Notes: generated from the letters alone by a model not told the origin. A stretch of DNA of 64,000 bases from Candidatus Hadarchaeales archaeon (GCA_038736355.1 JAVYML010000003.1:285314-349313), one strand, 5' to 3'; counted from the stretch's first letter, positions 15,666 to 40,388 are shown. Numbers and translations: made by a program.

Positions 15666-15668
15666 GTC

Positions 15669-21300: not shown

Positions 21301-21339
21301 CTTTTCTCCTCCTTCTTCCCTAATAAGAAGCGAAGGGGA

Positions 21340-22734: not shown

Positions 22735-23901
22735 TCACTTCACCCCTATCCAGGGCATGAAGGTAGGCTCACCCTTTTCTCCCATGAGCCACTTTATCAC
22801 ATCCTTCATCGTCCTGATGGCTGCGGGATGCAGGGTGATGTAGAGATCGTTTCCAGCCATGAGCATGGCGAGGGCCATCGCCGTTTCCCACATGGGACCC
22901 CTGTACTCCCTGGGACCCATTTCCGGATTGTGTAACCAGGCCTCCCTCGCCCCCCAAGCATTGGCGGTGGCCGAACCCATGGGACATTGGAGTTCTGCAT
23001 CTCCCATGAGGGCTGCCAGCCTAATTCTTTCCATAATGGAGAAGGCATATTCTATCCCATACCCAAGGGGGGCAGAGGTGGGATCGATCACTATCTGTTC
23101 CTTGGGTAGATACTCGTACAACCTACGGTTCAGTTCCTTCGCCTGGGCCATGTCTATGGAAGTCCAGGCCAAAACCACGTGACCGTATTGCTTGGCAGCC
23201 TTCGCCACGGGTTCCCACATGTCCAAGTTGGCCGAGCTCAAAAGTACCCTCTCCCCCTCGCAGACCTCTGCTATTTTGGGAAGGAGCTTTGCATCCTTCT
23301 CGGGGTTCCCCGATCCTCCCACGATCAGTGGAACATCCACGGCCTGCAAGATGTTCTCCACCAGCTTGCAGGATTCTTCTATGGGAGTGTTCTTGGAATA
23401 GGGATCGCTGCTGACGAGCTCTATGTCCACCAGATCCGCACCGAACTTCTCCACCGCCAGCTTTGCCCACTTGATGGGATCTTCTATGGCATCCCCCAGT
23501 ACCGCCCTAACGGGTCCTGGCAAGGGAACAGGCATGTCAAAGACATCACCTGCAATGGCTGGAGGATTGGGAAACTTTCCTTCCAGGAAGTGCCAAGGTG
23601 GAGCCGTTTCTCCCCCTATTTTCACAACCTTCCTCCTCGTTCCTCCATCGGCACTGGTCGCTCCCAGTGTAACCTCCGCTATGGAGCCTGGATATTCTTG
23701 CACGAAGGGAGAGAACTCGGCCTCCAACAGGGAAAGGGGCTTGGCTGGGACAGCCTCTTTGACCGGTGGTGGGACCACGGTCATCAAAGGCCTGAAAATG
23801 AACCTTAGTTCTTCTAGAGTGAGATCCACCTTCTCCAGCTCGAGTTCATTCATTTCCCCCAACAGCCTCAGGATCTCATCAAGTGGGGAACCTTCCGTCA
23901 C
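22735..23901 (-). CDS. cdhD: acetyl-CoA decarbonylase/synthase delta subunit (corrinoid Fe-S protein small subunit)
   Basis: 388 aa with pterin-binding-like TIM-barrel sequence. Position between cdhC and cdhE. Confidence 0.85.
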   Translation of the reverse strand: MTEGSPLDEILRLLGEMNELELEKVDLTLEELRFIFRPLMTVVPPPVKEAVPAKPLSLLEAEFSPFVQEYPGSIAEVTLGATSADGGTRRKVVKIGGETAPPWHFLEGKFPNPPAIAGDVFDMPVPLPGPVRAVLGDAIEDPIKWAKLAVEKFGADLVDIELVSSDPYSKNTPIEESCKLVENILQAVDVPLIVGGSGNPEKDAKLLPKIAEVCEGERVLLSSANLDMWEPVAKAAKQYGHVVLAWTSIDMAQAKELNRRLYEYLPKEQIVIDPTSAPLGYGIEYAFSIMERIRLAALMGDAELQCPMGSATANAWGAREAWLHNPEMGPREYRGPMWETAMALAMLMAGNDLYITLHPAAIRTMKDVIKWLMGEKGEPTFMPWIGVK

Positions 23902-23913
23902 CCTCTTCCTCCT

Positions 23914-25359
23914 TTATCCCTTTTTCTTCTCCACCCTTCTGATGATCATCTTCTCGGCGAAGATCTTGGCATTCTTCAGCACGATTTCGAACTCCATCCC
24001 ACCAGCACCCGGCACTCCCACGGTAAGGGTGGGGGCCAACATGGGCGCACCTTCCGCAGGCGCTTCGGGAGCAGGTGCGGCGGCGGCTTCCTCGGCCTCC
24101 ACCCCTTTCAATCCCTTTACACCCAATTTCTTCAGCTCCTCACTGGGCTCGACGATGGGATGATTATGGGCTTTTAAAAAGGCCTTGAGCTCTTCAATGT
24201 TCTTCACCTCTTCTTCGGTGGGTATCTTGTCCACCACATCCTTTGGTATGAAGTCCTTCACCCTTTCTTTGGCCTCCTTGGGAATCCAAACCACCCTCTT
24301 CCATCCACCATCTGCCTGGAGGAACTTCGGAGATCTCATGTATTCGAACGAGATACCATGAAAGCCATCCACCTGCCTCCCTCCTGCCGTGGAATCCGCC
24401 ATGGTAGAGAAAGGAACCCCGTTAACGGCGGGGCCCTTAAAGTCCCTGTGCACGATTCCCAATCCATCCACTTCTGGAATGTAGAAGGCGATAGCCTCAA
24501 AACACCCACAGGAAGTGTGCGGATAACCGAAGGCCGTGTAAAGCTGTACCCTTTGCACTGCCCCCAGGCTCTTGGCTTTAACAGATTCATTGGCCCCCTC
24601 CCACTCCCCCTTGAAGGGATCTATAACTTTCCCTATCTTGACTTCGTAGATGGGGCCCTTAGGATCTATCTTGGAGGCCGCCCTCCCATCGAACCAACTT
24701 ATAGCACCGCAATTGGCATACCTTTGGGGTGTGATCACGCACACATGGGTAGGGGCGAAGGATTGACAGAGGGTACATCCATAGAAAACATCCACTTCTT
24801 CGTCCTTTAGGCCCCTTGCCCTCGCATCCCTAGCCTCATAAACTTTGAGGGCCTCAGGATAGAGCTTAGCCACTTCGGCCGGATCCGTATAGAAAGTAAC
24901 TTGAACTCTCTCGATGATGGGACACTCGCTGTGGTAGAGCCTGATGATCACCGCTCCCAGATGCTTCAGGGTGAAACCTTTCTGCACCGTCTTTTTGCTC
25001 ACTCTGCACCAGATCGTGTTCCTTTGGTTGAGGTGCATGAAGCCCTCCACCCAGTTGGTGAAGTAGTGGATTCTCCTCTCGAAAACACCCTCCATCTCTT
25101 CCTCTAGGTCCTTTCCACCCACCTCCACCAAGATGGCAAAAGGAGTCTTGGTTCCTTCTGGCATGTCCTTGAAGTCTGGACCCACTACCGTTACCTTTCC
25201 ATCCTCCACCTGCTCTAGAGGTCTCACCCTCAAAAGTTCAAACTTGTGGGGAACATCCGGTCCACCCAGCTCCGCATGCATGTCCCCCTTCCTTATTCTC
25301 TCTCCCTCGTACACCACCCCTACGTCCACGGGGATGTCCGCGAACATTCCCGACTTCAT
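23914..25359 (-). CDS. cdhC: acetyl-CoA decarbonylase/synthase beta subunit (acetyl-CoA synthase, A-cluster)
   Basis: 481 aa. CTLCQSFAPTHVCVITPQRYANCGAISWFDGRA and GYPHTSCGCFE A-cluster ligand regions. Ala-rich linker and a basic C-terminal tail. Confidence 0.9.
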   Translation of the reverse strand: MKSGMFADIPVDVGVVYEGERIRKGDMHAELGGPDVPHKFELLRVRPLEQVEDGKVTVVGPDFKDMPEGTKTPFAILVEVGGKDLEEEMEGVFERRIHYFTNWVEGFMHLNQRNTIWCRVSKKTVQKGFTLKHLGAVIIRLYHSECPIIERVQVTFYTDPAEVAKLYPEALKVYEARDARARGLKDEEVDVFYGCTLCQSFAPTHVCVITPQRYANCGAISWFDGRAASKIDPKGPIYEVKIGKVIDPFKGEWEGANESVKAKSLGAVQRVQLYTAFGYPHTSCGCFEAIAFYIPEVDGLGIVHRDFKGPAVNGVPFSTMADSTAGGRQVDGFHGISFEYMRSPKFLQADGGWKRVVWIPKEAKERVKDFIPKDVVDKIPTEEEVKNIEELKAFLKAHNHPIVEPSEELKKLGVKGLKGVEAEEAAAAPAPEAPAEGAPMLAPTLTVGVPGAGGMEFEIVLKNAKIFAEKMIIRRVEKKKG

Positions 25360-25883
25360 TTTTCCAGCTCCTCCGCTATTTTTTCCAGGTTTTTATACCA
25401 TTCCTCCGCGGAGAGGTTGGGGAAGGACCAACTACAATGAGGCTGATAAAATCTATTTAAAGATATCGTTCGCAGGTGGGGTGCAAAGGACTTCAAACCT
25501 GAACCCATCAGCCACTCCATGTAATAGGGACCCAAGCCCAGCATCAGCACTAGATCGTGGGGCTGCCCGTCCCCATGCAGGCTCCACTTGGGATCCGTGA
25601 GTCTCGAGCATATCTCCACCATGGCCATTCTAGCGGCCGGTTGTAATCCCCTCTTCTTGAGCTCCATGGCCATTTGTGCCGTCGCCACCACCGGCACCTT
25701 TCCTGCCTTGGCTATCCTCACGGCGTAATCCAACGGTTTTCCTCCCTCTTCCTTCAGCGCCTCCGTCCCTACCACGAAGAGGGGCCGCTTGGCCCTTTTG
25801 ATGAGAACTGCTACTACCTCAGGCCTGGTGATGAGCACCGCCTTCACGGGTCCTGGAATCTCAGCCTTCTGCCACGGCTCCAC
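25356..25883 (-). CDS. cdhB: acetyl-CoA decarbonylase/synthase epsilon subunit
   Basis: 175 aa. Position between cdhA and cdhC with 4-nt and 1-nt junctions. Typical size and sequence character of CdhB. Confidence 0.8.
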   Translation of the reverse strand: MEPWQKAEIPGPVKAVLITRPEVVAVLIKRAKRPLFVVGTEALKEEGGKPLDYAVRIAKAGKVPVVATAQMAMELKKRGLQPAARMAMVEICSRLTDPKWSLHGDGQPHDLVLMLGLGPYYMEWLMGSGLKSFAPHLRTISLNRFYQPHCSWSFPNLSAEEWYKNLEKIAEELEK

Positions 25884-25884
25884 T

Positions 25885-28239
25885 TCATCCCTCCTTTACC
25901 CTGATGAGCCTGGGAACTAGGGTGGGATCGGGATTGGGATTTTCAAATTCCTTCCACCCTTTCTCTTTGAGGAAGGCCATTACCTCCTCCTTCATGGTCA
26001 CTGGGATGTCGGCCACCGTCCTCACGAAAAGATGGAGATCATCCGGAAGGTCTCCGAAAAGCCTGCGGTGCAGGTCTATGTAATGGTTCAGCTTAATGGA
26101 CCTGCCCTTGGTGGTATCGCTGGCCCTCATACAAAGCTTGGGAATGGCCACCATGGCCTCTTCCACCGTTTCCGCCATGAAGAAGAGGTGCTCGGGAACG
26201 GGACCCACATAGGCCTCCTTTCCCGTTCTAGCATCTATCACCTTCCAAACCTCTCGATCTTCCTTCCTACCCAGCAAGGCCCTCCTGTATTTCGAGCCAT
26301 GAGGTCCTACGATTACAGGGATTCCCAGTCTCCAGAATCCGCTGGCTATGGAGGAGGCCTTCTGGGAGTAAGCTCCCCAGGCCACGCCCACCGCTCCCAC
26401 CCTGTTATGGATGTAATCCGCTATTTCCTCGTAGTTGGCCCTCAGCCTGCGTTTGGCGAAGATGCTGGCGATTTTGATGGCGGCACCGGCTATGTGGGAA
26501 TTGGAGACACAGGAGCCACAGTTCACGATTCCTCCCGCATCAAAGACCCCGGGATAGGTCTCGTAAAGGCTTTGCCCGTTTTCATCCCTGTACATCCCTA
26601 TGGCCATCGCCGAGCATCCTGTCGTACAGATGATGTACTTCCTCCTCGCAAACTCCTCCGCCATCCTGGCCACTTCCTTCCAGCTCCCCGGAAAGTTGGA
26701 GCAACCCACGAAAGCTACTACTCCTGGGATCTCGCCCATGACGATGGGTTGACCCACCCTTCTTATTTCGATGTCCTGAATGGCTCCCCTCCCCGTCCTC
26801 ATCTTGAACTTCTCTTCCGCAATTTCTCTCCGATGGGCCCCTACGATAAGGGTATGGGGCTTTATCCCGACGGGACAAACCCCCTCCTGCTCGCATTTCC
26901 CACATCCGACACAGGGCTCGTAGAGGTCTGAGAGGGGTTTGAGGTTCCCCCTCCCCGCCTCCGCTAAAGCTTCGGGAATGGGAAGGGTGTTCGGGCATGA
27001 CCTCACACAAGAGAAACAGGAAGTACATCTTCTAGACTCCTCCATGAGCCTCTCCTCCGTGGGGATAAGGCCCATCTTTCTCCTCTTGGGGGCTATCTGC
27101 ATCGCTACCTTCACCGCTACCTCTCCAGCTTTTTCAGGATCCAGGATGGCAGCCCCAGGAAGTTTGCCTTCCACCAAGTCCTCTACGATTTGATCCACGG
27201 GATCTTTGGTCCTGTCCGGAAGTCCCTGCAGGTTCTTGTAGTGGGTAGTGATGAGGACTGCATTCACCTTTTGGGCCTCTTGCAGAATGTCCGTCCTTAT
27301 GCATTGCTCATCCACCATGATCACATCCGCCACACCGGACCTCACGAACCTAAGCTGAAAGGAAATGGGCCCCACGATCTTGGCCTTTCTGGAATACCTG
27401 CTGAGATCGATGGCCGTACAGCAGATCCCGCAGACCTCTACCTTGTCCTCCAGGCCTGCCTTGGCCAAGTAATCAGCCACCCCTATCGCGGGTGGTACAT
27501 TGTGTCCTATCACCAAAATCACGGGTTTGGAAGAGTCTATTACCCCCATCCCCAATTCCACCAAATGAGCCTCTGGATCGGCCTTCGGAAAACCGAAAGC
27601 CGAAACCTGGGCGATGTCCGCCACCTCCATCACAACGTGGTCTATCATACCAGCGTGGAAGACCTTGGACTCAAAGTCTAGGTTGTCTCCCTCCTGCCCC
27701 GTATGAACACAGGAGAGGAGATGGACGAGTTCCGTTTCACAATAATCCAGCACGTCCTCCAAGTCCCCCAGGGTCCTGGGCTTTATTCCCGTAACCAGTC
27801 TGATGATGGGGGCTTCCAAATACACGTTTTCCCCACCCACATCCAAGGGATAATCTCTCCCGTACTTCTCTATGAGTTCATCCAACATGTGCCTCGCATG
27901 CCCACAGTGGGTAGAGGCTCCTATGCAACAGGAGAGGAGAACGATCCTGGAGAGTTGACCTCCCATGTCTATACCACAAGCTCCCCTCTTGCCCTTGCTG
28001 AGATCACACTTTCCGAAGGTACAGAGACAACAGAGATCACAAAAGGGGAGGTAGAAGGGCTTGTACCTCTTGAGGAGTCTTTTATCCCACTCCCGGAGGG
28101 AGGCTATGTCCGGCATTGGGGTGGGACCCTCTTCCTCCTCCCACTCTCTGGCCACTCTCCCCAGACTCAGTTCGAAACCCTTTGCTTTCAGCCAAGGAAG
28201 CTGGAGTTCATCCGCTCTGATCCGAAGTTTGGAACCCAA
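25885..28239 (-). CDS. cdhA: acetyl-CoA decarbonylase/synthase alpha subunit (Ni-CO dehydrogenase)
   Basis: 784 aa. N-terminal Cys clusters (CDLCCLCTFGKCDL, GACGID), inserted 2x[4Fe-4S] ferredoxin segment (CTSCFSCVRSCP, CVGCGKCEQEGVCP) and C-cluster region (GCSAMAIG, CGSCVSNSH). TTG start preceded by GGGAGGGGGG. Confidence 0.9.
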   Translation of the reverse strand: MGSKLRIRADELQLPWLKAKGFELSLGRVAREWEEEEGPTPMPDIASLREWDKRLLKRYKPFYLPFCDLCCLCTFGKCDLSKGKRGACGIDMGGQLSRIVLLSCCIGASTHCGHARHMLDELIEKYGRDYPLDVGGENVYLEAPIIRLVTGIKPRTLGDLEDVLDYCETELVHLLSCVHTGQEGDNLDFESKVFHAGMIDHVVMEVADIAQVSAFGFPKADPEAHLVELGMGVIDSSKPVILVIGHNVPPAIGVADYLAKAGLEDKVEVCGICCTAIDLSRYSRKAKIVGPISFQLRFVRSGVADVIMVDEQCIRTDILQEAQKVNAVLITTHYKNLQGLPDRTKDPVDQIVEDLVEGKLPGAAILDPEKAGEVAVKVAMQIAPKRRKMGLIPTEERLMEESRRCTSCFSCVRSCPNTLPIPEALAEAGRGNLKPLSDLYEPCVGCGKCEQEGVCPVGIKPHTLIVGAHRREIAEEKFKMRTGRGAIQDIEIRRVGQPIVMGEIPGVVAFVGCSNFPGSWKEVARMAEEFARRKYIICTTGCSAMAIGMYRDENGQSLYETYPGVFDAGGIVNCGSCVSNSHIAGAAIKIASIFAKRRLRANYEEIADYIHNRVGAVGVAWGAYSQKASSIASGFWRLGIPVIVGPHGSKYRRALLGRKEDREVWKVIDARTGKEAYVGPVPEHLFFMAETVEEAMVAIPKLCMRASDTTKGRSIKLNHYIDLHRRLFGDLPDDLHLFVRTVADIPVTMKEEVMAFLKEKGWKEFENPNPDPTLVPRLIRVKEG

Positions 28240-28294
28240 CTGCCCCCCTCCCGTCTTTTTCTTCCAAGCTCACGAAATCTTTTCCTTTGAATAG

Positions 28295-28307
28295 TTTTTT
28301 ATAAAAA
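28295..28307. promoter_or_regulatory. palindromic TATA element TTTTTTATAAAAA in the cdhA/metV divergent region
   Basis: Strongest A/T block in the 172-nt gap, 56-68 nt upstream of the cdhA start. This fits a roughly 30-nt leader carrying the GGGAGG SD-like sequence. Confidence 0.4.
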
Positions 28308-28378
28308 CTTATCGGGGGGAGGCTTCTCCCAAACGTTGGTTTCCCCTAAGACTTTGGTTCTCTTCCTTTTACCGAAAT

Positions 28379-28388
28379 CTTAAAAAGG
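28379..28388 (+). promoter_or_regulatory. TATA-like box for metV
   Basis: CTTAAAAAGG, centred about 29 nt upstream of the metV ATG (28412). Confidence 0.35.
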
Positions 28389-28411
28389 AGAAACTTCATT
28401 CCATCATCGTT

Positions 28412-29086
28412 ATGATAATCACGAGAGAGAAACCTTTGCAGGAAATTTTGGGTTTTCTACAACCTTATAAAAAGGTCTTGGTCGTGGGTTGTGATGGCTG
28501 TGTACAACCCCCCCGTAGCCTCAGGGAAAGCGAAAGGATGGCCTCCCTTATAGAGCTGGCTAGGAGTTCCTCCGGAAACCCCATTCAGATAAGTGCCACC
28601 ACCGTCAGCAGACAGTGCTGTGCGGAGGGATTGCAAAACCAGCTGAAGGTGGAGGGCTACGAGGCCCTTCTCTCGATGGCTTGCGGGGTAGGTGTGCAGG
28701 TCATGAACTCCGTTTTTCCCTCCCTTCCCACCTTCCCCGCCCAGAACACGCTCTTCATAGGTTACGAGACGAAGAGGGAGGGAGAGATGTTTGAAAATTG
28801 CAGGGCTTGCGGGGAGTGTATGCTGGGCGAGACGGGAGGGATTTGTCCCGTGGCTAGGTGTGCCAAAGGACTCATGAACGGACCCTGTGGAGGGTGTGTG
28901 GAAGGGAAATGTGAAGTGCCTGTGGAGATAAGGAACTGGAAGGGGGAGGTAGTACAGACCCTCAAAAACGACTGTGCTTGGTACCTGATTTACCAGAGGT
29001 TGAAGGAACTGAACCGTCTGGATCTCTTCCGGAAGCTCCGGCTACCCAAGAACTGGGGGATAGCCGGATACCCCAGGAGGCTCTGA
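28412..29086 (+). CDS. metV: methylenetetrahydrofolate reductase C-terminal-domain protein (MetV-like, Cys-rich)
   Basis: 224 aa. VVGCDGC, CRACGECMLGETGGICPVARCAKGLMNGPCGGCVEGKCEV and CAWYLIY motifs characteristic of the MetV/MTHFR_C family. Abuts metF. Confidence 0.75.
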   Translation: MIITREKPLQEILGFLQPYKKVLVVGCDGCVQPPRSLRESERMASLIELARSSSGNPIQISATTVSRQCCAEGLQNQLKVEGYEALLSMACGVGVQVMNSVFPSLPTFPAQNTLFIGYETKREGEMFENCRACGECMLGETGGICPVARCAKGLMNGPCGGCVEGKCEVPVEIRNWKGEVVQTLKNDCAWYLIYQRLKELNRLDLFRKLRLPKNWGIAGYPRRL

Positions 29087-30013
29087 ATGAAAAAAGCCTT
29101 CTCCAACCTGATGAAGGCCATTTCCGAAGGAAAGTTCGTGTACACGGGCGAGCTGGAACCCCACAGGAGCATAGACCTCTCGGAAGTGGAGAGCTGGGCC
29201 AGAACCCTCAAAGAGGCTGGTATCGTGGCAGCCAACGTGACCGACAATCCCAGAAGCGACTCAGCCATAAGCAGCATGGTGGCCTCCTATCTCATCCAGA
29301 GGAACACCGGATTGGAAACCATCTACCAACTGAGGACGGCCGACCGCAACAGGTTGGCCCTGCTCTCGGACGTGCTGGGTGGAGCAGCCCTGGGGCTAAG
29401 AAACATCCTAGCCCTGACCGGAGACCACACGAGGATAGGCACCACACCTTCCTCCAAACCCGTTTTCGACCTAGATTCCACCGGTCTCATCGCCCTCATC
29501 CACAAGCTGGTTTACGAGGGCAAAGACCTCGACGGCAACGAGTTGAAGGGTCCAAGGCCCGAGATCAACGTGGGCGCGGCAGCTAATCCCAACATGGACC
29601 CCCTGGAAATAGAAATCCTCAAGCTGGAACGCAAGGCGGAGGCTGGGGCTGACTTCTTCCAGACCCAAGTGGTCTTCGACGTGGAAGTGGCCAGGCGCTT
29701 TCTGAGGGAGATAGAGCATATCAAGGTTCCCACCCTCGTGGGGATCTTCCCCCCACGCTCTTATGGACAGGCCGAATTCTTTGACAAATATGTCCCGGGA
29801 GTGAGAGTGCCCAAGGAATTCATGGAGGCCTTCGCCCGCTTCAGGACCATAGAGGACAAACAGAAAAGGAGCGAGAAGATCAACGAGTATAACGTGGAAT
29901 ACTTCTCCAACTTCATCAGGGAAGTGAAAAAGGAGAGGGCCTGCGCCGGCATTCACATCATGGCAGTGGGATATCCAGAGGTGATAAAGCCCCTCATGGA
30001 GAGTGTAAAGTAG
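29087..30013 (+). CDS. metF: methylenetetrahydrofolate reductase-like protein (MetF)
   Basis: 308 aa. NVTDNPRS, TIYQLRTADRNRLAL and NILALTGDH motifs of the MTHFR TIM barrel. Confidence 0.85.
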   Translation: MKKAFSNLMKAISEGKFVYTGELEPHRSIDLSEVESWARTLKEAGIVAANVTDNPRSDSAISSMVASYLIQRNTGLETIYQLRTADRNRLALLSDVLGGAALGLRNILALTGDHTRIGTTPSSKPVFDLDSTGLIALIHKLVYEGKDLDGNELKGPRPEINVGAAANPNMDPLEIEILKLERKAEAGADFFQTQVVFDVEVARRFLREIEHIKVPTLVGIFPPRSYGQAEFFDKYVPGVRVPKEFMEAFARFRTIEDKQKRSEKINEYNVEYFSNFIREVKKERACAGIHIMAVGYPEVIKPLMESVK

Positions 30014-30020
30014 TGGGAGG

Positions 30021-31145
30021 ATGTCCACTACTCTTCTTCAGACCCTCGAGGTGAATCCAGAACTTTGCTCCGAATGCCACTTTTGTCGTTGGGCCTGTCC
30101 CTATGAGGCCATCCAGCTGGAGGTGGGAAAGAAGGAGGGAGCAAAGATAGACTTGGAAAAGTGCAGGACCTGTGGTCTGTGCTCCTCCACCTGTCCTTCT
30201 GGGGCCATTCGCGCCCTTTACTATCCCGAAGAACTCCTCCTCTCGCGTGCGCGGGTGGTGGAAACCCTCATCCTGACCTGCAGGGGGAGTTCTCCTCCCG
30301 ACCTCGAGAAGGCCGTGAGGGAGAGCGGGGTCAAAGGCAGGCCCTTGGAAATCAGGCTCCCCTGTCTGGGAAGGCTGGATGCCGGAACCATGATGAAACT
30401 CCTCTCCCAGGGGATAAGGGAACTCGTGGTGATGCCTTGCGAGGAGGAGTTCTGCCGCTTCGAAAGGGGCAGCAAGGCCCTGGAGAGGAGGTTCCTCCTC
30501 CTCAGGAAGGTCCTGTCGGAAATGGGAAGGAAGGAAGTTCTGATCCTGCGGGAAAGGTCTAGGAAGGTGATTTTCAACAAGGACAGGTGCATATGGTGTG
30601 GAACTTGTGTGGACCTCTGTCCCTACGATGCCGTGAAGCTCCTCCCCTCCCAGAGAGTGGCGGAATTCGATCTTTCTAAGTGCATGGGATGCGGGATATG
30701 CGTGGCCAGATGTCCTGCCTTCGCCATAGAGCTGGAGGGCTTCGAACGAAGTTCCTTCCTCTCGAAGGTGGGGAAGGGTGCGGGAATTTTGGTGCTCGCT
30801 TGCCAGTGGGCGGAGTTCGCATGGGGGGATGAACTGGCTGGAATGGAGCGCAGGCTTCCCGAAGGGGTGGAACTGGTCTATCTCCCTTGTCTGGGTCTCT
30901 CGGACCAGCTTTTCGTGTTGGAGGCTCTCAGGAGGGGAAGAAAGGGGGTCCTGGTTTTGGGTTGTCCTGAAGAGGAGTGCAAGCTGGAGGAAGGAAGCAA
31001 GGCTGCTTCTCGTTACCTGAAGGAATTGGAGGAAAAATTGGAACAGGTGGGGCTCTCGGGGAAGGTGAGGTTCTCCACAGCTTCCCCGCGGGATCCCACC
31101 CTCCTAGAGAAGGAGATCCTTGAATTCTCCAAACAGCTCGAGTGA
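30021..31145 (+). CDS. tandem [2x4Fe-4S ferredoxin + MvhD/FlpD-like] iron-sulfur protein
   Basis: Module 1: CSECHFCRWACP, CRTCGLCSSTCP, then IRLPCLGRLDAGTMMKLLSQGIRELVVMPCEEEFCRFERG. Module 2: CIWCGTCVDLCP, CMGCGICVARCP, then ILVLACQWAEF...LVYLPCLGLSDQLFVLEALRRGRKGVLVLGCPEEECKLEEG. The architecture is duplicated within 374 aa. Confidence 0.75.
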   Translation: MSTTLLQTLEVNPELCSECHFCRWACPYEAIQLEVGKKEGAKIDLEKCRTCGLCSSTCPSGAIRALYYPEELLLSRARVVETLILTCRGSSPPDLEKAVRESGVKGRPLEIRLPCLGRLDAGTMMKLLSQGIRELVVMPCEEEFCRFERGSKALERRFLLLRKVLSEMGRKEVLILRERSRKVIFNKDRCIWCGTCVDLCPYDAVKLLPSQRVAEFDLSKCMGCGICVARCPAFAIELEGFERSSFLSKVGKGAGILVLACQWAEFAWGDELAGMERRLPEGVELVYLPCLGLSDQLFVLEALRRGRKGVLVLGCPEEECKLEEGSKAASRYLKELEEKLEQVGLSGKVRFSTASPRDPTLLEKEILEFSKQLE

Positions 31146-31917
31146 AAAGATCGTGCTGGCCGTTTCGGGGAAAGGGGGAGTGGGGAAGAGCACCCTCTCC
31201 GCCCTCATGATAAGGATCCTCTCGGAAAGGGGAAAGGGTCCCCTGCTGGCGGTGGATGCCAACCCGGATTCCAATCTTCCCCATCTTTTGGGGATCCAGG
31301 TGGATCGAACGGTGGCCGACCTCACCTCCGAGCTGAAGGAAGAAATAGAGGAGGGCAGGCTCCCCCCCACCCTCCCAAAGAAGGACTTGCTGGAATACCG
31401 CGTGATCAAGATCTTGAAGGAAACTCCTTCCTTCGATTTGCTGGTGATGGGGAGGGGGGAAGGGGAGGGATGTTACTGCATGGTAAACAAGCTCCTCACG
31501 GATATCCTGGACACCCTCAGCAGCAACTACAGGATCACCATCATAGACGAGGATGCGGGGTTGGAACACTTAAGCAGGAGGATGGATAGGGATGTGGACG
31601 TGATGCTCGTCGTCACCGACCCAAGCTCCATGGGCTTCAGGACGGCCTCCAGGATAAAGGAGGTGGCCAAAGAAGTGCACTTGGAGTTCAAGAAGATGTA
31701 TTTGGTGGGGAACCGCTTTTCCCCCGAACAGGTCCCCCTGTTGGAGGAAAAAGCCGCGGAAATAGGGCTTGAAGTGGGTGGAGTCCTACCCCAAGATGAA
31801 AACGTCTTCCTTTTGAACCTCGCCGGCAAACCCCTTTCCGAGCTACCCCCAGACAGTCCCTCCCTCAAAGCCACCGAAAAACTCTTACAGAAATTGGGTC
31901 TCCTCGACCAAGGATGA
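31120..31917 (+). CDS. cooC: CooC/AcsF-type nickel-insertion ATPase for CODH/ACS
   Basis: P-loop VSGKGGVGKST and the CxC nickel-binding motif GEGCYCMVN. The start is uncertain (TTG 31120 or GTG about 31153). Confidence 0.85.
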   Translation: MNSPNSSSEKIVLAVSGKGGVGKSTLSALMIRILSERGKGPLLAVDANPDSNLPHLLGIQVDRTVADLTSELKEEIEEGRLPPTLPKKDLLEYRVIKILKETPSFDLLVMGRGEGEGCYCMVNKLLTDILDTLSSNYRITIIDEDAGLEHLSRRMDRDVDVMLVVTDPSSMGFRTASRIKEVAKEVHLEFKKMYLVGNRFSPEQVPLLEEKAAEIGLEVGGVLPQDENVFLLNLAGKPLSELPPDSPSLKATEKLLQKLGLLDQG

Positions 31918-32498
31918 AGCTGGCCCTGTTGATCCTGGCCGGAGGAAGGAGCGAGAGGTGGGGGAAGGAAAAGGCGCTGGTGGAGGTGGAGGGTAAGCCC
32001 CTCCTCCTCCATGTACTGGAGAGACTGGAGGGACTTTCGGAGGAAAGGATCATCTCCTCCAAACCTGGTTTGGGGTTGGAGGTAAGGGGGGTAAAATTGG
32101 TGGAGGACTTTTCGGAAGAGAAGGGGGCCGTGATAGGTCTTCTGAGTTCCCTACCCCAAGTACGCTCCGAGTACGTGGCGGTGGTGGCCTGTGATCACCC
32201 CAGGGCCAACAGGGAGGTACTCGAGAAGTTGGCGGAAAGGGCTGAAGGGCGCGACGGGGCAGTGCCTCGCTGGCCCAACGGCTACATAGAGCCCCTGTAC
32301 GCCGTCTACAAAACCGAAAGCCTCCTGAAGGCGGTGAGGGAAGCTGGAGGTGAAAAGAGGCTGAGGAAGGTACTGGAGAAACTGGATATAGTTTACGTGC
32401 CCGTGGAAGAGCTGAGGGAAGCCGATCCACAGCTCGATTGCTTCTTCAACCTCAATTCCCCCGAGGACCTCCCCCTCCTTCCCCCACGCAGATCCTGA
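31914..32498 (+). CDS. mobA: molybdenum cofactor guanylyltransferase
   Basis: 194 aa. LILAGGRSERWG...KALVEVEGKPLL N-terminus and VVACDHP. ATGA overlap with cooC. Confidence 0.8.
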   Translation: MKLALLILAGGRSERWGKEKALVEVEGKPLLLHVLERLEGLSEERIISSKPGLGLEVRGVKLVEDFSEEKGAVIGLLSSLPQVRSEYVAVVACDHPRANREVLEKLAERAEGRDGAVPRWPNGYIEPLYAVYKTESLLKAVREAGGEKRLRKVLEKLDIVYVPVEELREADPQLDCFFNLNSPEDLPLLPPRRS

Positions 32499-34452: not shown

Positions 34453-35406
34453 TCAAGGCCTGAGGCCCAAAGATTTTTCCAGCACCTCTTCGTTGATCTT
34501 ACCCGCGTGGAACACCCTACCCGTTTTGAGGTTGTTCACGAAGATCTCCGCGGGGGAGAAGAGTTTAGGATCTATTTTGAAGAAGTCCCTCTGGTATCTC
34601 TCGAAGAGTTCTAGGAAGGGGACTCCGTAGTCCCTGGAGGAACTGGAGGGAACCTGCTCTATCACCCTCTCCACCTCCTCGTCCTCCGCTTCAACGAAAT
34701 AGACCGTTCTCCCACCGTAAAGCACACAATCGTTGGTCTTTCCCATGGCCTCGAGATCGTTCTTGGCCACGGGTGCGATGGGGGCCTTACCCAACCCGCT
34801 CACGATCTTTTGGAGCGGGAAACCCACTTCATGGAGCTTGTGGACTCCCGTCTCCACCACCCTTGCGGAGATCTGGATGCTCCCAACCAAACTGGCCGTG
34901 GGTGCCACGACCAACGTAAGGTTCTCGGGTTTCACACCGCAGCGCTGAGCCACTACCTCCGCCACCCTCTCGTCCGGGAGTTTCCTGGTTTCGAGGGTGA
35001 GCACCGCCACCTCACTCTCATCTTTATAACCGAGCTCCTCGAAGAGCTTCTCCACCCTGGCCAAGGCCCTGGCAGGGCCAGAACCCATGGCGAAGTACTT
35101 CTCCACCTTCACCGCCCATCCAGCGTATTGGGAAGCCATGCAGGAGATGAGGGGAAAGTCCGTCCTCACGAAGACCCAGGGGATTCTTTCCACCCTCACT
35201 TCCACTTTTCCCAGTCCGCCCATACAAATCTCCGAGAAGGCTATTCCCGCTTCCACGCTTCCGGGAACTTCCACCCCAGCATCGATTACCGTCGCACCGT
35301 TTCCCAACTTCTTTACCCTTATCTTCAGCTCCTCTTCCCTCCTCACCATCTCTTCCACTATCCTTTGGGCCCTCCTGTTCACGCTCAGCAAGTTCCTTCC
35401 CTCCAC
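34453..35406 (-). CDS. mch: methenyltetrahydromethanopterin cyclohydrolase
   Basis: 317 aa. SVNRRAQRIVEEM...LGNGATVIDAGVEVPGSVEAG N-terminus and overall length typical of Mch. Confidence 0.9.
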   Translation of the reverse strand: MEGRNLLSVNRRAQRIVEEMVRREEELKIRVKKLGNGATVIDAGVEVPGSVEAGIAFSEICMGGLGKVEVRVERIPWVFVRTDFPLISCMASQYAGWAVKVEKYFAMGSGPARALARVEKLFEELGYKDESEVAVLTLETRKLPDERVAEVVAQRCGVKPENLTLVVAPTASLVGSIQISARVVETGVHKLHEVGFPLQKIVSGLGKAPIAPVAKNDLEAMGKTNDCVLYGGRTVYFVEAEDEEVERVIEQVPSSSSRDYGVPFLELFERYQRDFFKIDPKLFSPAEIFVNNLKTGRVFHAGKINEEVLEKSLGLRP

Positions 35407-36203
35407 ACCAAGATTTCACCCTTTCCAGAACAGGCTAAATCCCCATCGTATCTCTCGTATTTCCCTTTTAGATGTTCTTCCCTTACGGGCAATCCCTCGC
35501 GTTGGAGGTACCGGAGGAGGAGGGGAAGGAAGGAGGGGAGATAGAGACAGCTGTACTGAAAGGTGGGAAGGAGGGGGGGTCTCTTGAAAGCCAGGATGGT
35601 TCCCCTCTCCATTCCTCCTCCCGCCCCCTCACCCATTTCTCCAAAACAAACGATCGTTCCTCCCGTCATGAGGGCGCCGGCAAAATCTCCCATTCTTCCC
35701 TCCACCACTATTATTCCCCTCCTCATCTTTTCTCCCACCTCCCTCCCGGCTTCTCCCCTCACGATGATCGTCCCTCCCTTCATCCCCACCTTGGATCCAC
35801 GATAGGCTGCCCCCACCAAGTTTCCCGCCTTACCCCTCACCTCTATCCTCCCGCCACTCATCTCCGCCCCCATCCAGTCACCCACTTCCCCCTCCACGAA
35901 GATTTCACCTCCCTTCATCTCCCTTCCCAAATGCATTCCCACCTTTCCCTTTACCTCAATCCTTCCCCTCGTCATCCCGGCTCCCACATGCTTCACCCTG
36001 CCGAAATCACCCTCCAACCTCAGGACCTCCCCCTCCCCCCTCTCCTCCACCGAGAAGAGCTCCTCCACCCTTTTCCTCCTCCTTCCGTAGAGCACCTCCA
36101 TCCTCCCTATTTCCCCCGCCGACTTACCACACAGGTGCTCAGGACTCAGGATTTCCGCTTCCACCGGAACCTTGAAGGGGCCCTTTGGTCTGAGAACGAT
36201 CAC
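35385..36203 (-). CDS. fwdC: formylmethanofuran dehydrogenase subunit C
   Basis: 272 aa. Repeated beta-helix units G.M.GG.I.V.G.(A/V)G (for example GAEMSGGRIEVRGKAGNLVG, MKGGTIIVRGEAGREVG). Confidence 0.85.
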   Translation of the reverse strand: MIVLRPKGPFKVPVEAEILSPEHLCGKSAGEIGRMEVLYGRRRKRVEELFSVEERGEGEVLRLEGDFGRVKHVGAGMTRGRIEVKGKVGMHLGREMKGGEIFVEGEVGDWMGAEMSGGRIEVRGKAGNLVGAAYRGSKVGMKGGTIIVRGEAGREVGEKMRRGIIVVEGRMGDFAGALMTGGTIVCFGEMGEGAGGGMERGTILAFKRPPLLPTFQYSCLYLPSFLPLLLRYLQREGLPVREEHLKGKYERYDGDLACSGKGEILVWREGTC

Positions 36204-37087
36204 TTCATCACCTCCCTCAGGTAAAAGAGGTACTTGCCCAGCTTGCCCCCGTAGTTACCGGCCGAAATCCTCTTTATACCCTTAACCGAACATGCCCCCT
36301 CTATTCCCACCCTCATCGCCCTCCTCACACTCTCCTCATCCAAGCCATTGATCACTATCTCGAGCACGCAGTTAACCCCTTCCGGGACTTTGCTCTTCAC
36401 CAACGGCCTCAGGGTGGGACAGTACTCGGTGTTGGTGGAAGCCCTCAAAAATTTGTACTTGGAACCCACCTTACTCCCACTCCTCACCACCCCGCCGGGG
36501 AAGGGGGCCACCACCCCTTCCACCTTCCTTATCCTCTCGACGGCCCTTTCCGCGGCCTCCAGCGTACAATCCTCATCCTCACCCAAGATGAGGAAATTCC
36601 CCCCTCCCACCGCCCTCTTTATTCCGAACTCCTCCTCAACCAAGAACTCCCCCTCCATCACGGGAATCCTCCAGAACCTTTTTCCCTCCAACCTCTTGGA
36701 GAGCTGGAAGCCATCCCCAAAGAACCTCAGCTTGGCCCCTACCTTGACGCTCTTTTCTCCCTGCAAACCGTTGAAACAGGAAGTGGTGGGACAGGTCATG
36801 ATGCACTGCCCTATCCTGCGGAGGAGCTGATCCTCCAAATCCTTCTCCGACATGGCGAAGAGGAGGAGGCTCGCTCCCGGCCTGCCATCGGGGGTTTCCT
36901 GCGGACTCAGCCACCTCTCCACCCCTGCCTCCGCCCCGCAGGCTATCACGGAAGTGGCAAAGCCCGTGGCGGTGAGGGCGGCGTTTCTCACCCACTCCTC
37001 GTTCTTGGCCGTTACGATTACCCTCGCAGCCCTCATGCCGAAAGCCTCGGCGAAGGTATCTTCTATCTCCACCCCATTCACCTGCAA
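36200..37087 (-). CDS. ftr: formylmethanofuran:tetrahydromethanopterin N-formyltransferase
   Basis: 295 aa. The N-terminus MQVNGVEIEDTFAEAFGMRAARVIVTA is the conserved Ftr start. Confidence 0.9.
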   Translation of the reverse strand: MQVNGVEIEDTFAEAFGMRAARVIVTAKNEEWVRNAALTATGFATSVIACGAEAGVERWLSPQETPDGRPGASLLLFAMSEKDLEDQLLRRIGQCIMTCPTTSCFNGLQGEKSVKVGAKLRFFGDGFQLSKRLEGKRFWRIPVMEGEFLVEEEFGIKRAVGGGNFLILGEDEDCTLEAAERAVERIRKVEGVVAPFPGGVVRSGSKVGSKYKFLRASTNTEYCPTLRPLVKSKVPEGVNCVLEIVINGLDEESVRRAMRVGIEGACSVKGIKRISAGNYGGKLGKYLFYLREVMK

Positions 37088-39956: not shown

Positions 39957-40329
39957 CCCTCCATCTCTTCACCAATTCCTCCAGGGGGGTGGGCTTCTCC
40001 CCCGGGGCCTTCGTAAGGCGGGCCTTCAAGCCCTTCAGGGAAGGCATGCCCGTTCCCTCCGTGAGGGGACTGGTAAGGAAGTTGGCCCAGGGACCCATCG
40101 GCATGAAAACCGTTCCCCTCTCCGTATTACCAAAAACGCATCTCACCACCACGGAACCGAACTCCGTGCTCACCCTGACCGTCTCCCCCTCCTTCACCCC
40201 TATGAGACTGGCATCCTCCGGATGGACAAAGACCACTGCCACTTTCTCAGAATATTCCGGAGAGGTTTTCCCCTTCTCCATGCTCACGCCTTGGTCCACC
40301 GTTCTACCGGTGTTCAGAAAGACTTCCAA
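39937..40329 (-). CDS. fwdD: formylmethanofuran dehydrogenase subunit D
   Basis: 130 aa. LNTGRTVDQG start and a molybdopterin-dinucleotide-binding beta-barrel-like sequence. TTG start at 40329. Confidence 0.8.
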   Translation of the reverse strand: MEVFLNTGRTVDQGVSMEKGKTSPEYSEKVAVVFVHPEDASLIGVKEGETVRVSTEFGSVVVRCVFGNTERGTVFMPMGPWANFLTSPLTEGTGMPSLKGLKARLTKAPGEKPTPLEELVKRWRGELGSV

Positions 40330-40353
40330 GGAAACCTTCTCTTTCCTTTCCCC

Positions 40354-40365
40354 AAAAATTTAAAT
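40354..40365. promoter_or_regulatory. palindromic A/T block AAAAATTTAAAT shared by divergent fwdD and mtd
   Basis: Centred about 30 nt from the fwdD start (40329, minus strand) and about 29 nt from the mtd ATG (40389, plus strand). Confidence 0.4.
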
Positions 40366-40388
40366 GTTTTCCCATCTCATTTTGGCCG

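What the first reader, a model, noticed from the sequence alone, without database searches (positions are those of the whole stretch)
28412..31145. MetV-MetF followed by a duplicated [8Fe ferredoxin + MvhD] protein: candidate unconventional methylene-H4MPT/H4F reductase module replacing Mer
Seen: metV (NGPCGGC... Cys-rich) and metF are contiguous. Eight nt later comes a 374-aa protein made of two tandem copies of 2x[CxxCxxCxxxCP] plus an MvhD/FlpD-like domain (PCLGR...GC..E.C...G). 

The surrounding 24 kb encode Fwd, Ftr, Mch, Mtd and CODH/ACS. No F420-dependent Mer lies in the window. 

Established: in acetogenic bacteria, MetVF associates with HdrABC-MvhD for electron-bifurcating or confurcating methylene-THF reduction. 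MetF-like genes have been proposed to substitute for Mer in several uncultured archaeal lineages. 

Inference: the tandem Fd-MvhD protein could be the electron-input module of an archaeal MetVF complex acting on the H4MPT branch. I do not recognise this duplicated architecture from characterised systems. No HdrA is adjacent.
Basis: partly seen in the sequence, partly recalled or inferred. Interest (0 to 1): 0.65.

Follow-up and report, generated by a model that had tools for sequence, protein, structure and literature searches.

The report
MetVF reductase with tandem ferredoxin-MvhD subunit
In a hot-spring alkane-oxidising archaeon, the two genes for a folate-type C1 reductase (MetV, MetF) are followed by a gene for an uncharacterised iron-sulfur "wire" protein, and this pairing recurs in many uncultured archaea and bacteria, so the wire protein is probably how the enzyme exchanges electrons.

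Summary
metV (28412-29086), metF (29087-30013) and a 374-aa gene (30021-31145, "T") are contiguous. They sit between cdhABCDE and mch/fwd/ftr/mtd, and the window holds no Mer and no HdrA.

T is a true tandem duplication of a [2x[4Fe-4S] ferredoxin + MvhD] unit. All 24 cysteines are predicted cluster ligands and are invariant in 60 homologues. No solved structure and no paper found here shows this architecture.

T is not rare. At least 483 GTDB species encode a relative (Hadarchaeales, Bathyarchaeia, Dehalococcoidia, Deltaproteobacteria). MetV lies within 1.5 kb in 48 of the best 80 loci, usually about 27 nt away, in two gene orders. These loci are often inside Wood-Ljungdahl clusters.

Ca. Syntrophoarchaeum has HdrA plus MvhD at the position T occupies here. 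Recurrent neighbours elsewhere are Mvh-type [NiFe] hydrogenase and FrhB-like proteins.

Best reading: T is a flavin-free Fe-S connector subunit of MetVF, a further subunit type beside the described 2-, 3- and 6-subunit forms. It would link MetF to an MvhD-docking partner, most likely an Mvh hydrogenase.

The Mer-replacement idea is already published, and genome-wide absence of mer could not be tested. Verdict: new variant of a known kind; interest 0.6.

The parts
28240..28411 (.). Divergent intergenic region between cdhA (-) and metV (+). It has A/T-rich TATA-like boxes (TTTTTATAAAAA near 28296; TTAAAAAGG near 28380).
   Evidence: Read directly from the sequence. The promoter assignment is inferred, not tested.
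28412..29086 (+). metV: Cys-rich (14 Cys) small subunit of the MetVF-type methylene-tetrahydropterin reductase. A gene caller starts it at 28436.
   Evidence: PF12225 at 1.7e-27. ORF; called gene. 60% identical to Ca. S. butanivorans MetV.
29087..30013 (+). metF: MTHFR-fold catalytic subunit of the archaeal 'ANME-1/Syntrophoarchaeum-type' clade.
   Evidence: PF02219 at 4e-31. 92-93% identical to the Hadarchaeales WYZ-LMO6 and JZ-2 MAGs, 79-80% to Ca. Alkanophaga, 66% to Ca. S. butanivorans and 56% to Methanophagales.
30021..31145 (+). T: tandem [2x[4Fe-4S] ferredoxin + MvhD] protein, 41.9 kDa, soluble, 24 Cys. Predicted to carry 4 [4Fe-4S] clusters plus 2 MvhD-type clusters.
   Evidence: Domains; duplication; conservation. 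AF2 model has pLDDT 86.8 and pTM 0.85. No transmembrane segment.
30045..30224 (+). T ferredoxin domain 1 (about aa 9-68; C16/19/22/26 and C48/51/54/58).
   Evidence: Fer4 stretches; invariant Cys.
30258..30530 (+). T MvhD-like domain 1 (about aa 80-170; C87, C115, C140, C145). This is the more diverged copy.
   Evidence: First FlpD stretch. Aligns to MvhD chains 9sw2_D and 5odc_D at E about 1e-4.
30567..30746 (+). T ferredoxin domain 2 (about aa 183-242; C190/193/196/200 and C221/224/227/231).
   Evidence: Fer4 stretches. Matches the HdrA C-terminal ferredoxin domain in PDB chains 8rvu_a and 5odc_A.
30780..31142 (+). T MvhD-like domain 2 (about aa 254-374; C261, C290, C315, C320, with a CQW motif). 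This is the canonical-looking copy.
   Evidence: FlpD residues 256-373 cover profile positions 1-119 of 123. Matches MvhD chain 7bkb_F at 3e-11. Foldseek TM-score on the target 0.76-0.80 to MvhD/ElpC.
31120..31917 (+). cooC-like P-loop ATPase (Ni-insertion type), fourth gene of the operon. The true start may be the GTG at 31153, just after the T stop.
   Evidence: CbiA/ParA/NifH-type hits. Junction sequence.
31914..32498 (+). mobA (molybdenum cofactor guanylyltransferase), fifth gene. It overlaps the cooC stop by 4 nt.
   Evidence: PF12804 at 1.1e-33; NCBIfam MobA models.
19699..28239 (-). Context: RACo and cdhE/D/C/B/A (archaeal CODH/ACS), transcribed divergently from metV.
   Evidence: Called genes with Pfam families. 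cdhA matches TIGR00314 at 1173 bits.
34453..41222 (.). Context: H4MPT methyl-branch genes mch, fwdC, ftr, fwdA, fwdB, fwdD (-) and mtd (+).
   Evidence: Called genes with PF02289, PF01493, PF01913, PF07969, PF01568 and PF01993.
43604..44674 (+). Possible partner (weak link): stand-alone FrhB/FdhB-like protein with an N-terminal 2x[4Fe-4S] domain.
   Evidence: PF04432 at 9e-45 and PF04422 at 3e-22. Homologues sit next to T or MetV in L011, L022 and L076; related FrhB-like ORFs sit upstream of T in L015, L019 and L071.

Best explanation
metV-metF-T encodes a three-subunit methylene-tetrahydropterin reductase in a Hadarchaeon of the alkane-oxidising WYZ-LMO6 lineage (Ca. Cerberiarchaeaceae / Ca. 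Melinoarchaeum).

What T is. T carries no flavin and no catalytic site. It is a soluble Fe-S connector predicted to hold four [4Fe-4S] clusters and two MvhD-type clusters. It arose by duplicating the [ferredoxin + MvhD] unit that forms the C-terminus of HdrA2-type proteins.

Proposed mechanism (inferred). T docks on MetV and relays single electrons between the MetV clusters / MetF flavin and an external redox module that recognises MvhD-type connectors. The best-supported partner is an Mvh-type [NiFe] hydrogenase. That would give a reversible H2:methylene-H4MPT oxidoreductase without HdrA. In this syntrophic alkane oxidiser it would run as methyl-H4MPT oxidation coupled to H2 formation, taking the place of Mer.

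Shown here: the gene anatomy, the cofactor motifs, the duplication, the family-wide T-MetV synteny, the Wood-Ljungdahl context, and transcription.

Inferred: physical complex formation, the identity of the partner, the cluster types, H4MPT specificity, and the replacement of Mer.
For: 1. Anatomy. T has two FlpD and four Fer4 stretches. Its halves are 31% identical, E 5e-20. All 24 Cys are invariant ligand positions. The AF2 model is confident, pTM 0.85.
2. T's best NCBIfam match is positions 574-768 of HdrA2, the C-terminal ferredoxin + MvhD part. It scores far below the family cutoff, and T lacks the flavin domain.
3. Synteny. At least 483 GTDB species loci encode a relative. MetV is within 1.5 kb of T in 48 of the best 80. 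In 45 it is directly downstream (median gap 27 nt); in 3 it is upstream. The order is T-metV-(metF) in Bacteria and Bathyarchaeia, and metV-metF-T in Hadarchaeales and L004. The arrangement is conserved in Hadesarchaea WYZ-LMO6 and JZ-2.
4. Pathway context. L027 reads mch-fwdCABD | T-metV-metF-mtd. L030, L047, L054 and L076 have T-metVF beside cdhEDC(B). L007 and L050 have cdh-cooC followed by T-metV.
5. Positional equivalence. Ca. S. butanivorans has metV-metF-hdrA(870 aa)-mvhD exactly where T sits. ANME-1 has metVF alone.
6. Link to a hydrogenase partner. The cluster mvhG-mvhA-protease-mvhD-T-metV-hypFDEAB recurs in Dehalococcoidia and Deltaproteobacteria. L004 reads metV-metF-x-T-mvhD-mvhG-mvhA-hdrA. 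Hecatellales L173 reads metV-metF-mvhG-mvhA. ACR-bearing Hadarchaeota are reported to encode Mvh, FrhB and HydAD and to dispose of electrons as H2 (PMC11297162).
7. MvhD is an established interchangeable connector between Mvh, Fdh or Elp and HdrA (PMC12350162).
8. Transcription. Sense-strand metatranscriptome reads and RNA contigs cover the metV/metF junction, T, cooC and mobA.
Against: - No physical or biochemical evidence exists for a MetV-T contact. No natural T-MetV fusion was found. A multimer prediction could not be run.
- No Mvh or HdrA lies in this window, so the partner must be encoded elsewhere.
- In most bacterial loci metF is not adjacent to T-metV. There, T-MetV may serve the hydrogenase rather than MetF.
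- A Bathyarchaeial paralogue clade works without MetV, so T is modular rather than MetV-exclusive.
- In this window the operon also carries cooC and mobA. On its own, local co-location could reflect only Wood-Ljungdahl clustering.
- The redox potential of the methylene/methyl-H4MPT couple (about -390 mV, from my own knowledge) leaves little driving force. It says nothing decisive about the partner.
Confidence: 0.55

Rival explanations
1. T is a built-in polyferredoxin. MetVF-T would be a reduced-ferredoxin-dependent, non-bifurcating reductase like the two-subunit clostridial MetFV. T would simply provide the docking site and wire for soluble ferredoxin, with no hydrogenase or Hdr partner.
For: Purified C. 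ljungdahlii MetFV uses reduced ferredoxin (PMC8515935). T's two 2x[4Fe-4S] domains are clostridial-ferredoxin-like. No Mvh or HdrA is in the window. CODH/ACS, a ferredoxin-linked enzyme, is encoded divergently.
Against: This does not explain why two MvhD domains, which are specialised protein-protein connectors, are strictly conserved. It also does not explain why T-metV is so often embedded in mvh/hyp clusters.
Confidence: 0.2
2. T is an extended MvhD that plugs MetVF into an HdrABC complex encoded elsewhere. That would give a Moorella-type (six-subunit-like) electron-bifurcating or confurcating system.
For: Ca. Syntrophoarchaeum has metVF-hdrA-mvhD. L004 has hdrA at the end of its metVF-T-mvhDGA cluster. 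Ca. Cerberiarchaeaceae MAGs encode HdrABC (PMC10811742). The T paralogue clade sits with an HdrA-MvhD fusion and HdrBC-like genes.
Against: Among the 48 MetV-linked loci, an HdrA-cluster gene lies within five genes of T in only two (L004, L015). In L004's close relatives, mvhDGA-hdrA occurs without T or metVF. With H4MPT, the small potential gap to H2 or F420 leaves no energy for bifurcation (my own knowledge).
Confidence: 0.15
3. T couples MetVF to an FrhB-like F420-oxidoreductase module. The result would be a modular F420-dependent methylene-H4MPT reductase, functionally the same as Mer.
For: A stand-alone FrhB-like gene lies in the window at 43604-44674. FrhB-like genes lie directly beside T or MetV in L011, L015, L019, L022, L071 and L076. 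In Elp-Hdr, an FdhB/FrhB-like subunit feeds an MvhD homologue (PMC12350162).
Against: The FrhB-like gene is 12.5 kb from T and in another transcription unit. Only about 6 of 80 loci show the link. FrhB-family proteins in bacteria need not use F420.
Confidence: 0.1
4. MetVF-T is not the catabolic Mer substitute. A canonical mer elsewhere in the genome does that step, and MetVF serves anabolic or folate-type C1 metabolism. Alternatively, T serves CODH/ACS or Fwd and is only co-located with metVF.
For: Ca. Alkanophaga, whose MetF is 79-80% identical, has and expresses both mer and metF (PMC10322722). The operon also contains cooC and mobA. Only 64 kb of the genome was seen.
Against: No folate-pathway genes are in the window. 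T-metV-metF is inserted between fwd/mch and mtd in L027 and beside cdh in four Bathyarchaeia. The T-MetV link holds where no CODH or Fwd gene is nearby.
Confidence: 0.15

Closest known systems
Hdr-type (six-subunit) methylene-THF reductase MetFV-HdrABC-MvhD of Moorella thermoacetica and Sporomusa ovata
   Same: It has a MetF + MetV core with an MvhD-type connector encoded next to it. The ferredoxin + MvhD unit of T matches the C-terminal ferredoxin + MvhD part of HdrA2-type proteins. In Ca. Syntrophoarchaeum, HdrA + MvhD occupy T's position.
   Different: No HdrA flavoprotein and no HdrBC is adjacent. The MvhD module is fused to ferredoxin domains and duplicated. T has no flavin, so T itself cannot bifurcate.
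Two-subunit MetFV reductase (C. ljungdahlii, C. formicoaceticum), reduced-ferredoxin dependent
   Same: The same MetF/MetV core, encoded inside a Wood-Ljungdahl gene cluster (PMC8515935).
   Different: Here a third, conserved Fe-S subunit follows the core. The host uses the H4MPT branch (Fwd, Ftr, Mch, Mtd) rather than folate enzymes.
Three-subunit MetFV-RnfC2 reductase of Acetobacterium woodii
   Same: The MetFV core plus one extra electron-input subunit.
   Different: RnfC2 is an NADH-oxidising flavoprotein. T has only Fe-S clusters and no nucleotide-binding domain.
MvhD / ElpC connector subunits of Mvh-Hdr, Fdh-Hdr and Elp-Hdr complexes (PDB 5ODC, 7BKB, 8RVU)
   Same: Each MvhD domain of T superposes on these chains (TM-score on the target 0.76-0.80) and keeps four Cys.
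   Different: The known connectors are stand-alone proteins of about 130-140 aa. T has two copies, each fused behind a 2x[4Fe-4S] domain. No full-length structural match exists (TM-score on the query at most 0.30).
Mer, the F420-dependent methylene-H4MPT reductase
   Same: It is the proposed pathway step, methylene-H4MPT to methyl-H4MPT. MetF substituting for Mer has been proposed for ANME-1, Syntrophoarchaeum, Bathyarchaeota and Hadarchaeota (PMC9012536, PMC10322722).
   Different: Mer belongs to a different family (PF00296, flavin-free, with direct hydride transfer from F420H2). MetVF-T would move single electrons through Fe-S clusters to a flavin.

Membership tests
MetVF-type methylene-tetrahydrofolate reductase | MetF subunit with the MTHFR TIM-barrel domain (PF02219) | tested here: met
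   4e-31 and 108.9 bits against a cutoff of 24; covers profile positions 4-284 of 287.
MetVF-type methylene-tetrahydrofolate reductase | Cys-rich MetV subunit (PF12225/DUF5981) encoded directly next to metF | tested here: met
   1.7e-27. The metV stop abuts the metF start. An RNA contig spans the junction.
MetVF-type methylene-tetrahydrofolate reductase | FMN and Fe-S content, and methylene-pterin reductase activity | not testable with these tools
   This needs purified protein. No MetV structure exists in the PDB.
Archaeal 'ANME-1/Syntrophoarchaeum-type' MetF clade | Close sequence relationship to the MetF of Syntrophoarchaeum, Alkanophaga, Bathyarchaeia and ANME-1 | tested here: met
   79-80% identical to Ca. 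Alkanophaga, 66% to Ca. S. butanivorans, 67-69% to Bathyarchaeia and 56% to Methanophagales. No formal tree was built.
Hdr-type (six-subunit) MTHFR, MetFV-HdrABC-MvhD | HdrA flavoprotein and HdrBC encoded with metFV | tested here: not met
   No HdrA, HdrB or HdrC among the called genes of the 64-kb window. Presence elsewhere in the genome is not excluded.
Hdr-type (six-subunit) MTHFR, MetFV-HdrABC-MvhD | An MvhD connector encoded with metFV | tested here: met
   Two FlpD/MvhD domains lie inside T, immediately after metF.
MvhD/FlpD family (PF02662) | The FlpD domain with its four conserved Cys | tested here: met
   118.5 bits against a cutoff of 22.3, in two stretches. Four invariant Cys per domain. 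Fold match to 5odc_D, 8rvu_F and 7bkb_F.
MvhD/FlpD family (PF02662) | A stand-alone single-domain subunit of about 130-140 aa | tested here: not met
   T is 374 aa, with two MvhD domains each fused to a 2x[4Fe-4S] domain.
HdrA2 (NCBIfam NF040770) | Full-length match that includes the thioredoxin-reductase-like FAD domain | tested here: not met
   158.5 bits against a cutoff of 1100. Only model positions 574-768 are matched, and there is no Pyr_redox hit.
Polyferredoxins (MvhB / FwdF) | Six to twelve tandem [4Fe-4S] motifs with no other domain | tested here: not met
   Similarity is limited to Fer4 repeats. T has four such motifs plus two MvhD domains. NCBIfam FwdF and VhuB scores are far below their cutoffs.
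Mer (F420-dependent methylene-H4MPT reductase) | A luciferase-like TIM-barrel protein (PF00296) present in the locus | tested here: not met
   No gene in the window carries PF00296. The rest of the genome could not be searched.

The most novel reading that the evidence does not exclude
T defines a general plug-in Fe-S adaptor that lets flavoenzyme modules be wired directly to Mvh-type [NiFe] hydrogenase, or to FrhB-like modules, without HdrA. The flavoenzyme modules are MetVF here and Nfn-like proteins in a Bathyarchaeial paralogue clade. In syntrophic alkane-oxidising Hadarchaeota this would give an H2-evolving methyl-H4MPT oxidase. That enzyme would be the missing electron outlet for the Mer-less H4MPT Wood-Ljungdahl pathway.
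Probability: 0.3. Interest if true: 0.75.

Novelty: new variant of a known kind. Interest (0 to 1): 0.6.

Why it matters
The electron carrier of the archaeal MetF that stands in for Mer is an explicitly open question (PMC9012536). This MetF occurs in ANME-1 relatives, Syntrophoarchaeum, Bathyarchaeia and Hadarchaeota. The physiological donor of bacterial MetFV enzymes is also still debated (PMC8515935, PMC9430772).

A conserved, dedicated Fe-S partner of MetV gives a concrete, testable answer for Hadarchaeota, many Bathyarchaeia and marine or subsurface Dehalococcoidia. If it holds, it would add a further subunit composition to the MTHFR classification.

Enrichment cultures of close relatives exist (Ca. 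Melinoarchaeum, Ca. Cerberiarchaeum), so the idea can be tested.

Tried and rejected
- Rosetta-stone search. The longer T homologues P0124, P0132 and P0135 carry extra regions, but none resembles MetV.
- Full-length structural or sequence analogue in the PDB. None was found, only ferredoxin and MvhD domain hits. MetV has no PDB relative.
- L004 as a Hadarchaeal bridge locus. Its Mvh and HdrA are 78-92% identical to Methanophagales-type MAGs. Close relatives have mvhDGA-hdrA without T or metVF upstream. Its origin is therefore ANME-1-like, and the adjacency of T to mvh there is a single observation.
- Cultured hosts for the bacterial clade. A homologue search with the Dehalococcoidales T returned only MAG and metagenome proteins.
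- Literature. No paper found describes a tandem ferredoxin-MvhD partner of MetV. The supplements of the two Hadarchaeota culture papers gave nothing on mer or metF: one file held as text had no hits and the other paper has none held.
- Expression. Two of three hot-spring metatranscriptomes gave no reads at 3% sampling. One gave low sense-strand coverage, and an RNA-contig run gave fragments.
- Multimer prediction.
- Genome-wide search for mer, hdrA and mvh. This was not possible, because only the window and its flanks within 10 kb are accessible.


Full report

The ORF list gives metV at 28412-29086 (224 aa), metF at 29087-30013 (308 aa) and a 374-aa gene at 30021-31145, called T here.

- Pfam assigns MetV to PF12225/DUF5981 (1.7e-27) and MetF to PF02219/MTHFR (4e-31).
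- T gets two FlpD/MvhD stretches (2.3e-34) and four Fer4 stretches.
- The metV stop abuts the metF ATG, behind a GGAGG. Seven nt containing GGGAGG separate metF from T.
- T's stop overlaps or just precedes a cooC-like ATPase gene, which in turn overlaps mobA.

The unit is therefore a five-gene operon, divergent from cdhA across an A/T-rich intergenic region.

**The surroundings**

Called genes with precomputed Pfam hits confirm three blocks:
- RACo and cdhE/D/C/B/A upstream on the minus strand.
- mfnA-like, RimK-like, mch, fwdC, ftr, fwdA, fwdB and fwdD downstream on the minus strand.
- mtd on the plus strand.

No gene of the window carries the Mer family PF00296, and none is an HdrA.

**T is a true tandem duplication**

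Residues 1-178 and 179-374 align at 31% identity over 164 positions, E 5e-20. Each half has two CxxCxxCxxxCP motifs followed by an MvhD-like domain with four Cys.

All 24 Cys of the protein are these ligand positions, and all are invariant in alignments of 19 and of 60 homologues. The prediction is four [4Fe-4S] clusters plus two MvhD-type clusters. The MvhD-type clusters would be [2Fe-2S] by homology. A [4Fe-4S], as I recall for the MvhD-like N-terminal domain of HdrA, cannot be excluded.

The C-terminal MvhD copy looks canonical: it has a CQW motif and matches 7bkb_F at 3e-11. The N-terminal copy is more diverged, at about 1e-4.

T is 41.9 kDa with no hydrophobic segment. Its best NCBIfam match is model positions 574-768 of HdrA2, the C-terminal ferredoxin + MvhD part. 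The score is 158 bits against a cutoff of 1100, and no flavin domain is present.

An AlphaFold2 model built on 60 sequences is confident (pLDDT 86.8, pTM 0.85). Foldseek against the PDB finds only domain-level matches. MvhD and ElpC chains give TM-scores on the target of 0.76-0.80, and the TM-score on the query never exceeds 0.30. No solved protein has this four-domain layout.

**Organism**

- T is 98% identical to a protein of a 'Hadesarchaea archaeon' MAG.
- MetF is 92-93% identical to the Hadarchaeales JZ-2 bins_146 and Hadesarchaea WYZ-LMO6 MAGs.
- The runs that hold the sequence are hot-spring metagenomes.

The WYZ-LMO6 family is Ca. Cerberiarchaeaceae / Ca. Melinoarchaeum. These are Acr-bearing alkane oxidisers with beta-oxidation, Cdh/ACS and an H4MPT methyl branch. 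They are reported to encode Mvh, FrhB and HydAD and to release H2 to methanogens (PMC10811742, PMC11297162). The window itself carries a four-gene group-3b-like hydrogenase, beta-oxidation genes and a stand-alone FrhB-like gene.

**T belongs to a widespread, uncharacterised family**

- The 5.8-billion-protein search returned at least 230 full-length relatives of 340-430 aa at 35-42% identity. Where named, they are called 'hydrogenase iron-sulfur subunit' or similar.
- The exhaustive search of representatives at 50% identity gave 31 clusters at E <= 1e-30.
- A scan of one genome per GTDB species found at least 483 loci. The best 80 come from Hadarchaeales, Bathyarchaeia, Dehalococcoidia, Deltaproteobacteria and others.
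- A second homologue search, seeded from a Dehalococcoidales member, found only proteins from uncultured organisms. This probably explains why nobody has studied the family.

**Synteny is the key result**

By tblastn, MetV lies within 1.5 kb of T in 48 of the 80 loci. In 45 it is directly downstream (median gap 27 nt), and in 3 it is upstream with metF in between. A neighbour-joining tree of T, labelled by context, resolves four groups.

| Group | Lineage | Typical gene order |
|---|---|---|
| i | Dehalococcoidia / Deltaproteobacteria | mvhG-mvhA-protease-mvhD-T-metV-hypFDEAB, usually without metF nearby |
| ii | Hadarchaeales plus L004 | metV-metF-T |
| iii | Bathyarchaeia | T-metV-metF, often with MetV and MetF fused |
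| iv | Bathyarchaeia paralogue, no MetV | TrxR-like, T, NfnA-like, NfnB-like, beside an HdrA-MvhD fusion and an HdrBC-like gene |

The bacterial 'MetV' is a genuine DUF5981 protein (2.2e-37; 45-50% identical to the window's MetV).

**The T-MetV(F) unit sits inside Wood-Ljungdahl clusters in several lineages**

- In Bathyarchaeote L027 the order is mch-fwdC-fwdA-fwdB-fwdD | T-metV-metF-mtd. That places the unit beside the preceding pathway step.
- In L030, L047, L054 and L076 it lies next to cdhE/D/C(/B).
- In Dehalococcoidia L007 and L050 it follows cdh genes and cooC.

**What stands next to closely related MetVF varies**

| Lineage (locus) | Gene order |
|---|---|
| Ca. Syntrophoarchaeum butanivorans (MetF 66% identical) | metV-metF-hdrA(870 aa)-mvhD, so HdrA + MvhD occupy T's position |
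| Methanophagales | metV-metF only |
| Ca. Alkanophaga | metV-metF without T |
| Hecatellales L173 | metV-metF-mvhG-mvhA |
| L004 | metV-metF-x-T-mvhD-mvhG-mvhA-hdrA |

L004 was binned as Nitrosotalea, but its Mvh and HdrA are 78-92% identical to Methanophagales-type MAGs. Those relatives lack T upstream, so the L004 arrangement is a single case.

FrhB/FdhB-like genes flank T or MetV in about six loci.

**Interpretation**

MvhD is an established, interchangeable connector. It couples Mvh, Fdh or the F420-dependent Elp module to HdrA (PMC12350162).

T consists of two copies of the ferredoxin + MvhD unit and nothing else. It is conserved next to MetV across domains and gene orders. It replaces HdrA + MvhD positionally in one lineage, and it is repeatedly embedded in mvh/hyp clusters.

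The most economical reading is that T is a flavin-free Fe-S connector subunit of MetVF. It would relay electrons between MetV/MetF and an MvhD-docking redox module, most likely an Mvh-type hydrogenase.

In this H2-releasing alkane oxidiser the direction would be methyl-H4MPT oxidation. From my own knowledge, the methylene/methyl-H4MPT couple (about -390 mV) lies close to H+/H2 (-414 mV). Such a reaction would therefore be reversible at syntrophic H2 pressures, and bifurcation would be energetically pointless.

All of this is inference from anatomy and context. No interaction or activity was tested.

**Rivals**

- Ferredoxin is the direct partner, as in the two-subunit clostridial enzyme (PMC8515935).
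- MetVF-T is coupled to HdrABC encoded elsewhere, as in the Moorella/Sporomusa type (PMC9430772).
- MetVF-T is coupled to the FrhB-like protein, giving an F420-linked enzyme.
- The trivial case: a canonical mer elsewhere does the catabolic step. Ca. Alkanophaga has both mer and metF (PMC10322722).

**Expression**

In one stranded hot-spring metatranscriptome, reads over metV-metF-T lie in the sense orientation, and reads over cdh lie in the opposite orientation, as expected. In another RNA run, contigs at 95-99% identity cover the metV/metF junction, T, cooC and mobA. The operon is transcribed in nature, at modest depth in the sampled data.

**Comparison with what is known**

The literature classifies MetF-type reductases as follows (PMC8515935, PMC9430772):
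- MetF alone.
- MetFV (2 subunits, ferredoxin-dependent).
- MetFV-RnfC2 (3 subunits, NADH-dependent).
- MetFV-HdrABC-MvhD (6 subunits).

MetVF + T fits none of these, although it is built from the same parts. MetF replacing Mer is already proposed for this clade, including Hadarchaeota (PMC9012536, PMC10322722). None of the searches found a description of the tandem ferredoxin-MvhD partner.

**Verdict**

The finding is a new variant of a known kind. The Mer-replacement claim is plausible, but it is neither new nor verifiable from this window. Interest is 0.6.

Noticed in passing
window 10934-15147 (-), flanked by 9694-10932 (+) and 14847-16685 (-): A four-gene group-3b-like [NiFe] hydrogenase: large subunit, Oxidored_q6 small subunit, an NAD-binding/DHODB Fe-S subunit and a Fer4_22 subunit. 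It is embedded among beta-oxidation-type genes (thiolase, MaoC dehydratase, SDR). This matches the 'HydAD' reported for ACR-bearing Hadarchaeota.
   Followed up: partly
window 7518-9271 (+): Ku (263 aa) followed directly by an ATP-dependent DNA ligase (319 aa). This is an NHEJ-type gene pair in an archaeon.
   Followed up: no
window 43604-44674 (+): A stand-alone FrhB/FdhB-like protein with an N-terminal 2x[4Fe-4S] domain, near mtd. Homologues sit beside T or MetV in a few other lineages (L011, L022, L076).
   Followed up: partly
window 18183-19702 (+): A B12-binding corrinoid protein (216 aa) overlapping a DUF166 protein (299 aa), next to RACo and the cdh operon. Function unassigned.
   Followed up: no
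L029 5956-10467 and about 30 other Bathyarchaeia loci (e.g. L013, L034, L074): A paralogue of T lies between a thioredoxin-reductase-like gene (310 aa) and NfnA-like/NfnB-like genes. An HdrA-MvhD fusion and an HdrBC-like gene are often nearby. This could be an undescribed Nfn/Hdr-type electron-transfer complex.
   Followed up: partly
L005 3469-14958 and about 20 other Dehalococcoidia/Deltaproteobacteria loci: A conserved cluster mvhG-mvhA-protease-mvhD-T-metV-hypF-hypD-hypE-hypA-hypB with no metF within 7 kb. Here MetV looks like a hydrogenase-associated subunit.
   Followed up: partly
L004 (DYFG01000018.1): This contig is binned as Nitrosotalea sp., but its mvhDGA-hdrA genes are 78-92% identical to Methanophagales-type MAGs. 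The contig is probably mis-binned.
   Followed up: yes
L173 506-2534 (Hecatellales MAG): metV-metF is followed directly by the mvhG and mvhA hydrogenase genes, with no T, MvhD or HdrA in the short contig.
   Followed up: no
window 60313-63307 (+): A run of small co-directional ORFs without Pfam hits, one with a faint class III (archaeal pilin-type) signal-peptide hit.
   Followed up: no
window 17447-18226 (both strands): Overlapping ORFs of 234 aa (+) and 247 aa (-) with no Pfam match, between an M54 archaemetzincin-like peptidase and the corrinoid protein. The coding strand is undetermined.
   Followed up: no
whole window: The window is covered by two different Logan contigs of the same run (SRR27730027_1826 for about 1-16.8 kb; SRR27730027_54245 for about 20-64 kb). 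An identical MetF is recorded on a 366-kb contig, so a longer assembly of this genome exists.
   Followed up: no
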